Below, piece after piece: positions 5,738-8,035 of a stretch of 64,000 nucleotides of DNA. Origin of the DNA: Escherichia coli. Lineage in GTDB: Bacteria; Pseudomonadota; Gammaproteobacteria; Enterobacterales; Enterobacteriaceae. The stretch lies in the NCBI RefSeq assembly GCF_003334405.1, contig NZ_QOWM01000002.1; one strand, 5' to 3'. A program made the translations under genes and the position numbers. Under the pieces are notes generated by a model. It did not search any database. It worked only from the letters and a program-made list of their open reading frames with translations, and had not been told where the DNA came from. Positions within the stretch are counted from its first letter, which is position 1, and each line of letters begins with the position of its first letter.

Positions 5738-6817
5738 ATGTCTAAGATTTTTGATTTCGTAAAACCTGGCGTAATCACTGGTGATGACGTACAGAAAGTT
5801 TTCCAGGTAGCAAAAGAAAACAACTTCGCACTGCCAGCAGTAAACTGCGTCGGTACTGACTCCATCAACGCCGTACTGGAAACCGCTGCTAAAGTTAAAG
5901 CGCCGGTTATCGTTCAGTTCTCCAACGGTGGTGCTTCTTTTATCGCTGGTAAAGGCGTGAAATCTGACGTTCCGCAGGGTGCTGCTATCCTGGGCGCGAT
6001 CTCTGGTGCGCATCACGTTCACCAGATGGCTGAACATTATGGTGTTCCGGTTATCCTGCACACTGACCACTGCGCGAAGAAACTGCTGCCGTGGATCGAC
6101 GGTCTGTTGGACGCGGGTGAAAAACACTTCGCAGCTACCGGTAAGCCGCTGTTCTCTTCTCACATGATCGACCTGTCTGAAGAATCTCTGCAAGAGAACA
6201 TCGAAATCTGCTCTAAATACCTGGAGCGCATGTCCAAAATCGGCATGACTCTGGAAATCGAACTGGGTTGCACCGGTGGTGAAGAAGACGGCGTGGACAA
6301 CAGCCACATGGACGCTTCTGCACTGTACACCCAGCCGGAAGACGTTGATTACGCATACACCGAACTGAGCAAAATCAGCCCGCGTTTCACCATCGCAGCG
6401 TCCTTCGGTAACGTACACGGTGTTTACAAGCCGGGTAACGTGGTTCTGACTCCGACCATCCTGCGTGATTCTCAGGAATATGTTTCCAAGAAACACAACC
6501 TGCCGCACAACAGCCTGAACTTCGTATTCCACGGTGGTTCCGGTTCTACTGCTCAGGAAATCAAAGACTCCGTAAGCTACGGCGTAGTAAAAATGAACAT
6601 CGATACCGATACCCAATGGGCAACCTGGGAAGGCGTTCTGAACTACTACAAAGCGAACGAAGCTTATCTGCAGGGTCAGCTGGGTAACCCGAAAGGCGAA
6701 GATCAGCCGAACAAGAAATACTACGATCCGCGCGTATGGCTGCGTGCCGGTCAGACTTCGATGATCGCTCGTCTGGAGAAAGCATTCCAGGAACTGAACG
6801 CGATCGACGTTCTGTAA
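5738..6817 (+). CDS. fbaA: fructose-bisphosphate aldolase class II
   Basis: 359 aa from MSKIFDFVKPGVITGDDVQKVF...; the track start at 5654 is an upstream extension. Confidence 0.95.
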   Translation: MSKIFDFVKPGVITGDDVQKVFQVAKENNFALPAVNCVGTDSINAVLETAAKVKAPVIVQFSNGGASFIAGKGVKSDVPQGAAILGAISGAHHVHQMAEHYGVPVILHTDHCAKKLLPWIDGLLDAGEKHFAATGKPLFSSHMIDLSEESLQENIEICSKYLERMSKIGMTLEIELGCTGGEEDGVDNSHMDASALYTQPEDVDYAYTELSKISPRFTIAASFGNVHGVYKPGNVVLTPTILRDSQEYVSKKHNLPHNSLNFVFHGGSGSTAQEIKDSVSYGVVKMNIDTDTQWATWEGVLNYYKANEAYLQGQLGNPKGEDQPNKKYYDPRVWLRAGQTSMIARLEKAFQELNAIDVL

Positions 6818-6842
6818 GATATTCCTTTCTGCTTATCTCAAG

Positions 6843-6867
6843 GCCCGCTCTGCGGGTCTTTTTTTCG
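6843..6867 (+). terminator. rho-independent terminator after fbaA
   Basis: CCCGC-TCT-GCGGG stem followed by TCTTTTTTT. Confidence 0.6.
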
Positions 6868-6877
6868 CCAAAAGCAA

Positions 6878-6985
6878 AATTGCCTGATGCGCTACGCTTA
6901 TCAGGCCTACACGTATCCTGCAATATATTGAATTTGCAGGTTTTTGTAGGCCGGATAAGGCGTTCACGCCGCATCCGGCATGACA
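6878..6985. repeat. REP/BIME element (two REP units in opposite orientation)
   Basis: GCCTGATGCGCTACGCTTATCAGGCCTAC and GTAGGCCGGATAAGGCGTTCACGCCGCATCCGGCA are canonical E. coli REP palindromes. Confidence 0.8.
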
Positions 6986-7010
6986 AAGCGCACATTGATA
7001 TCTGTCTGAG

Positions 7011-7033
7011 CCCCGCTCTGCGGGGATTTTTTC
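7011..7033 (+). terminator. second terminator-like hairpin (near-duplicate of the one at 6843)
   Basis: CCCCGC-TCT-GCGGGG stem plus T-tract, followed by the same TCGCCAAAAGCAA tail as the first copy. Confidence 0.45.
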
Positions 7034-7174
7034 GCCAAAAGCAAGGTGATTCAGATGAGAAATCTGTGATCTATTTGGCAAAATTATGCTTTATTGTTTA
7101 CCCTTGTCAGACTGCCCGTCATAAGGCGGCGGAGTGTATTTCTCCATTTTGAGTCAGTTGAAAAGGAATATTGA

Positions 7175-8035
<861 letters not shown>

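What the first reader, a model, noticed from the sequence alone, without database searches (positions are those of the whole stretch)
6839..7046. Duplicated terminator hairpin flanking a REP pair downstream of fbaA
Two near-identical hairpin-plus-T-tract units (CGCTCTGCGGG...TTTTTCGCCAAAAGCAA) occur about 170 bp apart with two inverted REP units between them. This looks like a composite BIME with terminator duplication, which could modulate 3'-end stability of the epd-pgk-fbaA mRNA or insulate mscS.
Basis: seen in the sequence. Interest (0 to 1): 0.3.

Follow-up and report, generated by a model that had tools for sequence, protein, structure and literature searches.

The report
Terminator duplicated by BIME-1 insertion
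A common E. coli repeat element (BIME-1) sits between two copies of the fbaA transcription terminator, and the same duplicated-hairpin footprint at other BIME-1 sites hints at how these repeats insert.

Summary
Two same-orientation copies of the fbaA intrinsic terminator (6841-6877 and 7009-7044) bracket a 131-bp BIME-1/RIP element made of a Y REP, an IHF-type linker and a Z1 REP.

The arrangement is an insertion/deletion polymorphism. About 3,720 of 5,426 complete E. coli genomes carry it. About 1,630-1,700 carry an allele 167 bp shorter, with one terminator. One E. coli strain and one Escherichia sp. have three terminators and two BIMEs. 49 other enterobacterial species representatives, spanning many genera, have a single-terminator spacer of about 190 bp.

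Published Term-seq places RNA 3' ends in the U-tract of copy 1 in all three conditions, and of copy 2 in stationary phase only.

The pattern is general. At three other polymorphic BIME-1 loci (metE-ysgA, rutG-ymdF, srmB-yfiE) the empty site has one terminator hairpin and the filled site has that hairpin on both sides. Six of 27 sampled BIME-1 sites show such flanking repeats; none of 702 cross-site controls does.

The duplication is therefore best read as the footprint of BIME-1 insertion, later reshaped by unequal recombination. Back-up termination and insulation of mscS are plausible by-products, not shown to be adaptive.

The element and its presence/absence polymorphism are known. I did not find the hairpin-duplication rule in the literature I could read.

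The parts
5738..6817 (+). fbaA coding sequence (class II fructose-bisphosphate aldolase); stop codon 6815-6817
   Evidence: Annotation under the BLAST hits. MG1655 b2925 lies at 3070165-3071244, using the mapping MG1655 coordinate = 3076982 - window coordinate.
6841..6877 (+). Terminator copy 1 (T1). Hairpin 6840-6860 (9 bp including one G-U), U-tract 6859-6865, native tail CGCCAAAAGCAA 6866-6877. This is the left copy of the 37-bp duplicated target.
   Evidence: Term-seq 3' ends at MG1655 3070119/3070118 = window 6863/6864 in LB OD 0.4, LB OD 2.0 and M63. The pgk-fbaA full-length transcript ends at 3070118.
6878..7008 (+). BIME-1 / RIP element, 131 bp. It lacks the usual left external motif.
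   Evidence: It is absent, together with one T copy, from the 167-bp-shorter allele. It aligns with 14 other BIME-1 copies. It folds as a -51.6 kcal/mol long hairpin.
6882..6910 (+). Y-type REP (palindromic unit): GCCTGATGCGCTACGCTTATCAGGCCTAC
6911..6945 (+). L linker of BIME-1, with an IHF-consensus-like site ATTCAATATATTG at 6933-6921 on the minus strand (1 mismatch to WATCAANNNNTTR)
   Evidence: Rfam ES036 (CssrF) hit at 6903-6945 on the minus strand, 47.3 bits against a gathering score of 37.6. IHF-consensus scan.
6946..6980 (+). Z1-type REP: GTAGGCCGGATAAGGCGTTCACGCCGCATCCGGCA
   Evidence: Partial Rfam naRNA4 match, below the gathering score.
6981..7008 (+). Right external motif of BIME-1 (TGACAAAGCGCACATTGATATCTGTCTG). 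In typical copies it is the inverted partner of the left external motif.
   Evidence: Alignment of 15 BIME-1 sites.
7009..7044 (+). Terminator copy 2 (T2). Hairpin 7011-7025 (6 G-C pairs), U-tract 7027-7032, tail 7033-7044. This is the right copy of the duplicated target.
   Evidence: Term-seq 3' end at MG1655 3069950 = window 7032 in LB OD 2.0 only, 44,902 reads, classed 'orphan'.
7111..7111 (+). mscS transcription start site, 67 nt downstream of the end of T2
   Evidence: SMRT-Cappable-seq transcript 3069871-3068908 on the reverse strand, converted with the mapping.
7175..8035 (+). mscS coding sequence

Best explanation
The fbaA-mscS spacer originally held one intrinsic terminator, as it still does in other enterobacteria and in about 31% of E. 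coli. A BIME-1 (RIP/RIB) element was inserted there in an early Escherichia lineage. The insertion duplicated the target, so one copy of the terminator now lies on each side of the element. This is the local case of a general BIME-1 footprint: elsewhere the element sits between two copies of the whole local terminator stem-loop (19-24 bp). Here the duplicated segment is unusually long at 37 bp. It includes the U-tract and 12 more bases, and the element's left external motif is missing. As a result both copies are complete terminators. Once present, the 36-37-bp direct repeats recombine unequally, giving alleles with 1, 2 or 3 terminators. Functionally, T1 ends most epd-pgk-fbaA transcripts. 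Read-through RNA carries the BIME hairpin and stops at T2, upstream of the mscS promoter. T2 therefore acts as a back-up terminator and produces a minor, REP-containing 3'-UTR isoform that is visible in stationary phase.

Shown: the anatomy, the polymorphism, the single-terminator state outside Escherichia, in vivo 3' ends at both copies, and the recurrence of hairpin duplication at other loci. Inferred: that the duplication arose at the insertion event itself, the molecular mechanism, and any fitness value of the tandem terminators.
For: (1) Empty and filled alleles. 3,726 of 5,426 genomes have the long allele. The rest have a place exactly 167 bp shorter, with a single T1-type terminator joined directly to GGTGAT. 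A second query gave 1,627 short alleles.
(2) Outgroups. In 49 of 51 non-Escherichia species representatives whose fbaA lies next to mscS, the spacer is 158-218 bp with one terminator and no REP.
(3) Age. The same junctions occur in E. whittamii (L008) and Escherichia sp. E1V33 (L007). The insert is 115-119/134 identical to the E. coli copy, matching mscS divergence of 89-91%.
(4) Copy-number change. L007 has T-B-T-B-T with its two BIMEs 133/134 identical. E. coli SW070917 has T1-B-T2-B-T2 with an exact extra 167-bp unit.
(5) Generality. Among 27 distinct BIME-1 sites, left and right flanks share direct repeats scoring 14-25.5 at 6 sites. In 702 cross-site pairs the maximum is 11 and the mean 6.85. 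The repeats always abut the element ends.
(6) Three independent empty/filled pairs. metE-ysgA, rutG-ymdF (1,734 filled genomes) and srmB-yfiE (2,525 filled) each have one hairpin in the empty site and the hairpin on both sides in the filled site.
(7) Function. Term-seq and SMRT-Cappable-seq 3' ends lie at T1. A Term-seq 3' end lies at the last U of T2 in LB OD 2.0. The mscS start site is downstream of T2.
(8) T2 keeps a stem through a paired change (G.U in T1 becomes C-G in T2). In another E. coli lineage it is a 7-bp GC stem plus U7.
Against: No insertion event was observed, so 'duplication at insertion' is inferred from end states.

The fbaA site departs from the typical footprint: a 37-bp repeat that runs past the hairpin, and no left external motif. 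The native tail GCCAAAAGCAA matches the missing motif's GACAAACGCAA at 9 of 11 positions, in register with the junction. This suggests a second, homology-guided step (patch conversion or microhomology joining) rather than one clean event.

Only about a quarter to a third of sampled BIME-1 sites show a recognisable flanking repeat.

Whether today's short alleles are never-occupied sites or secondary deletions is unresolved. Both alleles occur on several flank haplotypes, and no chimeric T1/T2 short allele was found.

E. albertii, E. fergusonii and Salmonella could not be retrieved.

The T2 3' end appears in one condition of one dataset. It could reflect greater stability of REP-containing decay products rather than more read-through.

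T2 is degenerate in E. whittamii, so it is not universally maintained.
Confidence: 0.75

Rival explanations
1. The arrangement is an adaptive regulatory module. It exists because selection favoured tandem terminators plus a REP stabiliser, giving a growth-phase-dependent choice between a short and a BIME-containing fbaA 3' UTR and tight insulation of mscS from a very highly expressed operon.
For: T2 3' ends reach 82% of the T1 read count in LB OD 2.0 and are not listed in exponential phase. T2 keeps a stem by a paired substitution and is stronger in another lineage. Both copies keep U-tracts, unlike the left hairpin copy at typical BIME-1 sites. The mscS start site lies just downstream.
Against: About 31% of E. 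coli, and most Enterobacteriaceae, manage with one terminator. T2 is degenerate in E. whittamii. The same architecture arises at unrelated loci as an insertion footprint. No expression data compare the alleles. Stationary-phase enrichment can be explained by RNA stability alone.
Confidence: 0.2
2. The repeat arose by local duplication unrelated to BIME insertion. Either a tandem T-T slippage duplication was later split by a BIME, or a T+BIME unit was duplicated.
For: Unequal recombination clearly operates here, giving the 3-copy alleles.
Against: Duplicating a T-B or B-T unit would give T-B-T-B or B-T-B-T, not T-B-T with both outer flanks identical to the empty site. A T-T intermediate was not seen in the alleles examined. 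The same hairpin-element-hairpin layout recurs at at least five other loci with different hairpins, which independent slippage cannot explain.
Confidence: 0.05
3. T2 is the terminator of a separate small RNA that starts inside or just upstream of the BIME (a REP-derived or naRNA-like transcript). It is not a back-up terminator for fbaA.
For: Adams et al. class the T2 3' end as 'orphan', and it is seen only in stationary phase. Rfam REP-derived families (naRNA4, ES036) match the BIME.
Against: No sigma-70-like promoter is predicted on the plus strand between T1 and T2. The ES036 match is on the opposite strand. The naRNA4 match is below the gathering score. No start site in this interval was found in the data I could read.
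Confidence: 0.1
4. The two copies resemble each other by chance, or by convergence of GC-rich terminator hairpins.
For: None beyond the fact that terminators share a generic shape.
Against: 33 of 36 aligned positions match, including an 18-nt non-palindromic tail. Shuffles expect 0.00-0.04 matches. Cross-site flank comparisons never exceed a score of 11, against 25.5 here. The empty allele has exactly one copy.
Confidence: 0.01

Closest known systems
BIME-1 / RIP / RIB elements of E. coli (Y REP - L linker with IHF site - Z1 REP; Gilson, Bachellier, Hofnung; Oppenheim; Boccard and Prentki)
   Same: It has the same REP types, the same conserved L linker with an IHF-like site, a single-copy extragenic location at the 3' end of a transcription unit, and presence/absence polymorphism among isolates. 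The polymorphism is reported by Bachellier 1997 as summarised in PMC1187871. The structure is described in PMC3333891.
   Different: This copy lacks the left external motif and is flanked by a 37-bp direct repeat that includes a complete terminator. None of the papers I could read mentions duplication of the target hairpin. The two most relevant older papers were not held.
MITEs (miniature inverted-repeat transposable elements: terminal inverted repeats plus a target-site duplication)
   Same: Typical BIME-1 copies have inverted external motifs (about AGAYTGWTGACAAA) at both ends and are flanked by a direct duplication of target DNA. Matching empty sites exist.
   Different: The duplication is 19-37 bp, varies in length, and equals a whole palindromic stem-loop. 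MITEs have a fixed 2-10 bp duplication set by a DDE transposase (MITE features as described in PMC3184786). No cognate transposase is known to produce this.
REPIN / RAYT (TnpA_REP, IS200/IS605-like Y1 transposase) model of REP doublet mobility
   Same: It is a doublet of inverted REPs able to form a long hairpin in single-stranded nucleic acid, and E. coli BIMEs are the proposed substrates of TnpA_REP (PMC3333891).
   Different: IS200/IS605-type transposition produces no larger target-site duplication (PMC2817692). The footprint seen here is therefore not what that mechanism predicts.
CRISPR spacer integration by Cas1-Cas2, in which the repeat is duplicated on both sides of the new spacer (analogy drawn from my own knowledge)
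   Same: A partly palindromic target of about 28-37 bp ends up duplicated on either side of the inserted DNA. This implies staggered attacks at the two borders of the palindrome. IHF is involved in E. coli type I-E integration, and an IHF site lies in the BIME-1 linker.
   Different: No cas genes, leader or array are involved here. The insert is a 130-190-bp repeat element, not a 33-bp spacer. This is an analogy of outcome only.
Tandem ('fail-safe') intrinsic terminators and REP mRNA stabilisers at the 3' ends of operons
   Same: Two same-sense hairpin-plus-U-tract terminators lie in series, both used in vivo. A REP-containing 3' UTR could protect RNA from 3' exonucleases; this is an established REP function, cited in PMC3333891.
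   Different: Here the second terminator is a paralogous copy of the first, created by a repeat-element insertion, and it is dispensable in a third of strains.

Membership tests
BIME-1 / RIP (RIB) | One Y-type and one Z1-type REP in inverted orientation | tested here: met
   Y REP at 6882-6910 and Z1 REP at 6946-6980. Column-by-column agreement with 14 other BIME-1 copies.
BIME-1 / RIP (RIB) | Conserved long L linker carrying an IHF consensus site | tested here: met
   Rfam ES036 (the L motif) scores 47.3 bits against a gathering score of 37.6. ATTCAATATATTG at 6933-6921 on the minus strand has 1 mismatch to WATCAANNNNTTR. IHF binding itself is not testable here.
BIME-1 / RIP (RIB) | External flanking motifs on both sides (inverted partners) | tested here: not met
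   The right motif is present (6981-7008). The left motif (about TGAGACTGATGACAAACGCAAAACTGCC) is replaced by the native U-tract plus tail. I therefore file it as a 5'-truncated or converted BIME-1.
BIME-1 / RIP (RIB) | Single copy, extragenic, at the 3' end of a transcription unit; present or absent among isolates | tested here: met
   It lies downstream of fbaA. There are 3,726 long and about 1,630-1,700 short alleles. Rare 2-BIME alleles exist.
Intrinsic (Rho-independent) terminator | GC-rich hairpin immediately followed by a U-tract, in the sense orientation | tested here: met
   T1 has 9 bp plus U7 (-14.1 kcal/mol). T2 has 6 bp plus A-U6 (-11.6 kcal/mol).
Intrinsic (Rho-independent) terminator | RNA 3' ends in the U-tract in vivo | tested here: met
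   T1: window 6863/6864 in three Term-seq conditions and in SMRT-Cappable-seq. T2: window 7032 in LB OD 2.0 only. Termination and processing are not distinguished.
MITE | Terminal inverted repeats | tested here: inconclusive
   They are present in the BIME-1 consensus, but the left one is missing at this locus.
MITE | Short target-site duplication of fixed length | tested here: not met
   The duplication is long and variable: 19-24 bp at metE, rutG and srmB, and 37 bp here. It equals the target palindrome.
REPIN mobilised by RAYT (IS200/IS605-like) | Insertion without target duplication (peel-and-paste into single-stranded DNA) | tested here: not met
   Flanking duplications with matching empty sites occur at four loci. 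The property of the family is taken from PMC2817692.
REPIN mobilised by RAYT (IS200/IS605-like) | Dependence on TnpA_REP for movement | not testable with these tools
   This needs genetics or biochemistry.
Copy-number-variable tandem repeat (minisatellite-like) | Head-to-tail units whose number differs between close relatives | tested here: met
   The unit is BIME plus T (167-168 bp). There are 0, 1 or 2 extra units in E. coli and 0-2 in other Escherichia.

The most novel reading that the evidence does not exclude
BIME-1 is a MITE-like element that integrates by a structure-directed reaction, cutting on either side of an extruded intrinsic-terminator hairpin. Candidate routes are staggered nicks at the base of a cruciform, or cruciform resolution followed by capture of the element. 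Either way the whole palindrome is duplicated, as a CRISPR repeat is at spacer integration. This would be a mechanism distinct from RAYT/IS200-type peel-and-paste. It would explain why BIME-1/RIB elements sit at the 3' ends of transcription units: targeting, not only purifying selection.
Probability: 0.3. Interest if true: 0.7.

Novelty: new variant of a known kind. Interest (0 to 1): 0.4.

Why it matters
How REP/BIME elements spread is a 40-year-old open question, and no insertion event has been observed. Matched empty and filled sites in which a whole terminator hairpin is duplicated give a concrete footprint that any proposed mechanism must reproduce. The favoured IS200-like RAYT mechanism does not predict it. 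The footprint also suggests a direct assay: trapping BIME-1 into plasmid-borne terminator hairpins.

Locally, a third of E. coli strains differ from K-12 by a 167-bp indel. It changes the 3' UTR of one of the most highly expressed glycolytic operons and the sequence upstream of the mscS promoter. It also behaves as a small copy-number-variable locus.

If the hairpin-duplication rule was already described in the 1990s BIME literature that I could not read, the finding reduces to an ordinary, well-understood BIME-1 locus.

Tried and rejected
- Strict 37-nt REP consensus pattern. It gave no hit in the window because it was too strict. I replaced it with short head and tail motifs.
- Genome-contig scan with MscS. 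It returned four non-coli Escherichia lineages and many genera, but not E. albertii, E. fergusonii, Salmonella or E. coli itself. About 25 of the 80 loci were a paralogous mscS next to a LysR-type gene, and I discarded them.
- Protein search with MscS to reach named outgroups. It was swamped by near-identical E. coli singletons.
- Exact-protein look-up with FbaA. It gave only E. coli-like contigs without organism names. It did add a long allele on a different flank haplotype.
- Whether the T unit is part of the mobile element. Rejected: it does not recur elsewhere in the window, the hairpins flanking other BIME-1 copies are locus-specific, and the tail is orthologous to Citrobacter and Klebsiella spacer sequence.
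- Whether the flanking repeats are inverted rather than direct (hairpins are self-complementary). Direct scores are equal or higher at all six high-scoring sites. Here the contrast is decisive, 25.5 against 7.
- Chimeric T1/T2 short allele, as a signature of deletion within the hairpin. None was found, which is uninformative on polarity.
- The acnB-downstream BIME-1 site. It is not E. coli, so no empty-site comparison was possible.
- Term-seq look-up for ymdF and srmB, to test read-through at typical sites. No usable entries.
- Supplement of PMC9023263. Not held.
- Bachellier 1997 (PMC1207841) and Boccard and Prentki 1993 (PMC413762). Not held.

Full report
**Observation.** Copy 1 (6841-6877, 37 nt) and copy 2 (7009-7044, 36 nt) are same-orientation units made of a GC hairpin, a T-tract and the tail CGCCAAAAGCAA. 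They lie 167-168 bp apart and differ at three bases and one T of the run. Neither half of the unit occurs elsewhere in the window with up to two mismatches, and shuffles expect 0.00-0.04 matches. Both copies are called as intrinsic-terminator-like sites. They fold as RNA at -14.1 kcal/mol (9 bp plus U7) and -11.6 kcal/mol (6 bp, then A-U6). Between them lie two inverted REPs. The upstream gene is fbaA and the downstream gene is mscS. The window matches E. coli K-12 MG1655 with one mismatch in 6,001 nt, which gives the mapping MG1655 coordinate = 3076982 - window coordinate.

**What lies between the copies.** The 131 bp at 6878-7008 are a BIME-1 (also called RIP or RIB). The parts are a Y REP (6882-6910), the conserved L linker (6911-6945), a Z1 REP (6946-6980) and the right external motif (6981-7008). 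The linker matches Rfam ES036 above its gathering score. It carries an IHF-consensus-like site with one mismatch. The whole segment aligns column by column with 14 other BIME-1 copies. As RNA it forms a long hairpin of -51.6 kcal/mol.

**The arrangement is polymorphic.** Of 5,426 complete E. coli genomes, 3,726 carry the long allele. The others have a locus exactly 167 bp shorter. Alignment shows that the short allele has one terminator of the copy-1 type joined directly to the sequence that follows copy 2. A junction-specific query counted 1,627 short alleles, and none was chimeric between the two hairpins. A query specific for copy 2 followed by a BIME found one E. coli strain, SW070917, with T1-BIME-T2-BIME-T2. 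Its extra 167-bp unit is exact. Copy number in the species is therefore 1, 2 or, rarely, 3. Long alleles include K-12, BL21-type, W, O104:H4, O111:H8 and O157 strains. Short alleles include ST131. Both alleles occur on several flank haplotypes. Some short alleles have flanks identical or nearly identical to K-12, and one long allele sits on a haplotype otherwise seen with short alleles.

**Outside E. coli.** Among other Escherichia lineages, two have the short form (L005, L006). E. whittamii has the long form with a degenerate second hairpin (L008). Escherichia sp. E1V33 has three terminators and two BIMEs that differ by one base (L007). These states are interleaved relative to mscS divergence. 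The junctions are the same as in E. coli. The insert is 115-119/134 identical to the E. coli copy, the same level as the neighbouring gene. The insertion is therefore old and mostly vertically inherited. In 49 of the 51 non-Escherichia species representatives whose fbaA lies next to mscS, the spacer is 158-218 bp with a single terminator and no REP; they span many genera. The other two carry unrelated insertions. The single-terminator state is thus ancestral for the family, and T-BIME-T is derived. I could not decide whether present-day short alleles within Escherichia are never-occupied sites or secondary deletions between the repeats. The 3-copy alleles show that unequal exchange between the terminator copies does occur, and deletion is its reciprocal product.

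**The wider pattern.** I scanned metagenome contigs for the BIME-1 linker motif and clustered the hits into 27 distinct genomic sites. At many of them the element runs left external motif - Y - L - Z1 - right external motif, with the two external motifs inverted partners of each other. It is bracketed by two copies of a locus-specific GC-rich stem-loop.

- Local alignment of the 95 nt left against the 95 nt right of each element scored 14-25.5 at six sites.
- A further site scored 14 only in the inverted orientation, and two or three more were weaker but positionally consistent.
- In 702 cross-site pairings the mean score was 6.85 and the maximum 11.
- The repeats always abut the ends of the element.

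Three of these loci are polymorphic in E. coli or between close relatives, and in each the empty site carries exactly one hairpin:

| Locus | Hairpin in the empty site | Status of the locus |
|---|---|---|
| metE-ysgA | CCGGGTGGTAATACCACCCGG | empty in K-12; filled in a relative |
| rutG-ymdF | CACCGCCGGTAATCCCGGCGG | 1,734 filled genomes |
| srmB-yfiE | AATGCCGGGTTTAAGCCCGGCATT | 2,525 filled genomes |

The duplicated segment there is the whole stem-loop, 19-24 bp. The fbaA duplication is therefore one instance of a general BIME-1 footprint.

**How the fbaA site differs.** Its repeat is the longest seen, at 37 bp. It extends past the hairpin through the U-tract and 12 more bases, and the left external motif is absent. 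The native tail GCCAAAAGCAA is orthologous to Citrobacter and Klebsiella spacer sequence. It matches the corresponding part of the missing motif (GACAAACGCAA) at 9 of 11 positions, in register with the junction. I infer a homology-guided step. Either a canonical insertion was followed by short-patch conversion of the left copy from the right copy, or the left end was joined by microhomology. In either case both copies here are complete terminators. At typical sites, by contrast, the promoter-proximal hairpin loses its U-tract.

**Function.** Term-seq data from Adams et al. 2021 (PMC7815308, Supplementary file 1) list the following 3' ends.

| Site | MG1655 coordinate | Window coordinate | LB OD 0.4 | LB OD 2.0 | M63 OD 0.4 |
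|---|---|---|---|---|---|
| T1 U-tract | 3070119 / 3070118 | 6863 / 6864 | 160,555 reads | 54,607 reads | 120,854 reads |
| T2, last U | 3069950 | 7032 | not listed | 44,902 reads ('orphan') | not listed |

SMRT-Cappable-seq (PMC6131387) has the pgk-fbaA transcript ending at 3070118. It places the mscS start site at 3069871, window 7111, downstream of T2. T1 is therefore the main terminator. T2 is used in vivo at least in stationary phase, and it lies between the BIME and the mscS promoter. The stationary-phase signal could reflect more read-through, or greater stability of RNAs ending in a BIME hairpin plus T2. T2 keeps its stem through a paired change (G.U becomes C-G), and in another E. coli lineage it is a 7-bp GC stem plus U7. 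It has decayed in E. whittamii. A back-up and insulating role is plausible. It is not required, since a third of strains and most relatives lack T2.

**Mechanism of the duplication (inferred).** A duplication that equals a whole palindrome implies that the two strands were opened at opposite borders of the hairpin and the gap was filled. Possible routes are staggered nicks at the base of an extruded cruciform, or resolution of the cruciform into two ends that each retain the palindrome, followed by capture of the element. The outcome resembles repeat duplication at CRISPR spacer integration; this comparison rests on my own knowledge and is an analogy only. It is not the outcome expected from IS200/IS605-like Y1 transposases such as the REP-associated TnpA_REP, which make no such duplication (PMC2817692; PMC3333891).

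**Comparison with what is known.** BIME-1 structure, IHF binding, location at 3' ends of transcription units and presence/absence among isolates are established. In four literature searches and eight papers read I found no description of target-hairpin duplication (25, 30, 41, 42, 57, 58, 69, 70). The two most relevant older papers were not available, so prior description cannot be excluded.

**Verdict.**
- The structural interpretation is right.
- The regulatory interpretation is plausible but unproven.
- The best-supported reading is an old BIME-1 insertion footprint that happens to have produced tandem working terminators and a small copy-number-variable locus.
- Interest is moderate. The locus itself is ordinary. 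The general footprint bears on the unsolved question of how BIME elements insert.

Noticed in passing
window 34500-34690: A second REP cluster with at least four REP heads or tails in alternating orientation (BIME-2 or atypical type) lies after a stop codon. By eye it has no flanking hairpin repeat.
   Followed up: partly
window 6903-6945 (minus strand): The Rfam family ES036 (CssrF 'sRNA') matches above its gathering score, but what it models is the L linker of BIME-1 plus the foot of the Y REP. The family therefore looks like a repeat-element motif rather than a single gene.
   Followed up: partly
L008 (E. whittamii), about 1330-1370, compared with L088 (metagenome BIME-1 site, cluster #2): The degenerate second hairpin of E. 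whittamii (CAACAATCTGAGGCCGCCAGGATAG...) matches the right border and flanking hairpin of a different BIME-1 locus (CAACAATCTGAAGCGGCCAGAATAG...) at about 22 of 25 positions. This suggests ectopic gene conversion between BIME-1 copies that runs into the flank.
   Followed up: no
L110, compared with L206 (metE-ysgA): The right copy of the duplicated hairpin differs from the left copy by a compensatory pair (GGTGGT...ACCACC against GGTGGC...GCCACC). This parallels the G.U to C-G change between T1 and T2 at fbaA.
   Followed up: no
window 5938: This is the single base difference from MG1655 NC_000913.3 within 6,001 compared bases, and it lies inside fbaA.
   Followed up: no
L009-L014, L016, L017, L030, L041 and others: Many Citrobacter, Trabulsiella, Pseudocitrobacter and Yokenella genomes carry a second mscS-like gene (85-94% identical to E. 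coli MscS). It lies downstream of a LysR-type regulator gene and is not linked to fbaA.
   Followed up: no
L029 1095-1500; L038 1006-1500: Intestinirhabdus alba and Entomohabitans teleogrylli have enlarged fbaA-mscS spacers (405 and 494 bp). They carry unrelated inserted sequence, including extra hairpins, and no REP.
   Followed up: no
L212 2581-2937: In an E. coli-like contig about 98% identical to the window, the tail of T1 has diverged (TTTTTTTTGCTAAAAGAAA) while T2 is intact. Downstream of mscS lies a DctP-family gene instead of argO.
   Followed up: no
window 7083-7110 (minus strand): A sigma-70-like promoter match (CTGACA, 16-nt spacer, CATAAT; 10 of 12) points away from mscS towards the BIME. 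The match count equals the shuffle expectation, so it is probably chance.
   Followed up: no
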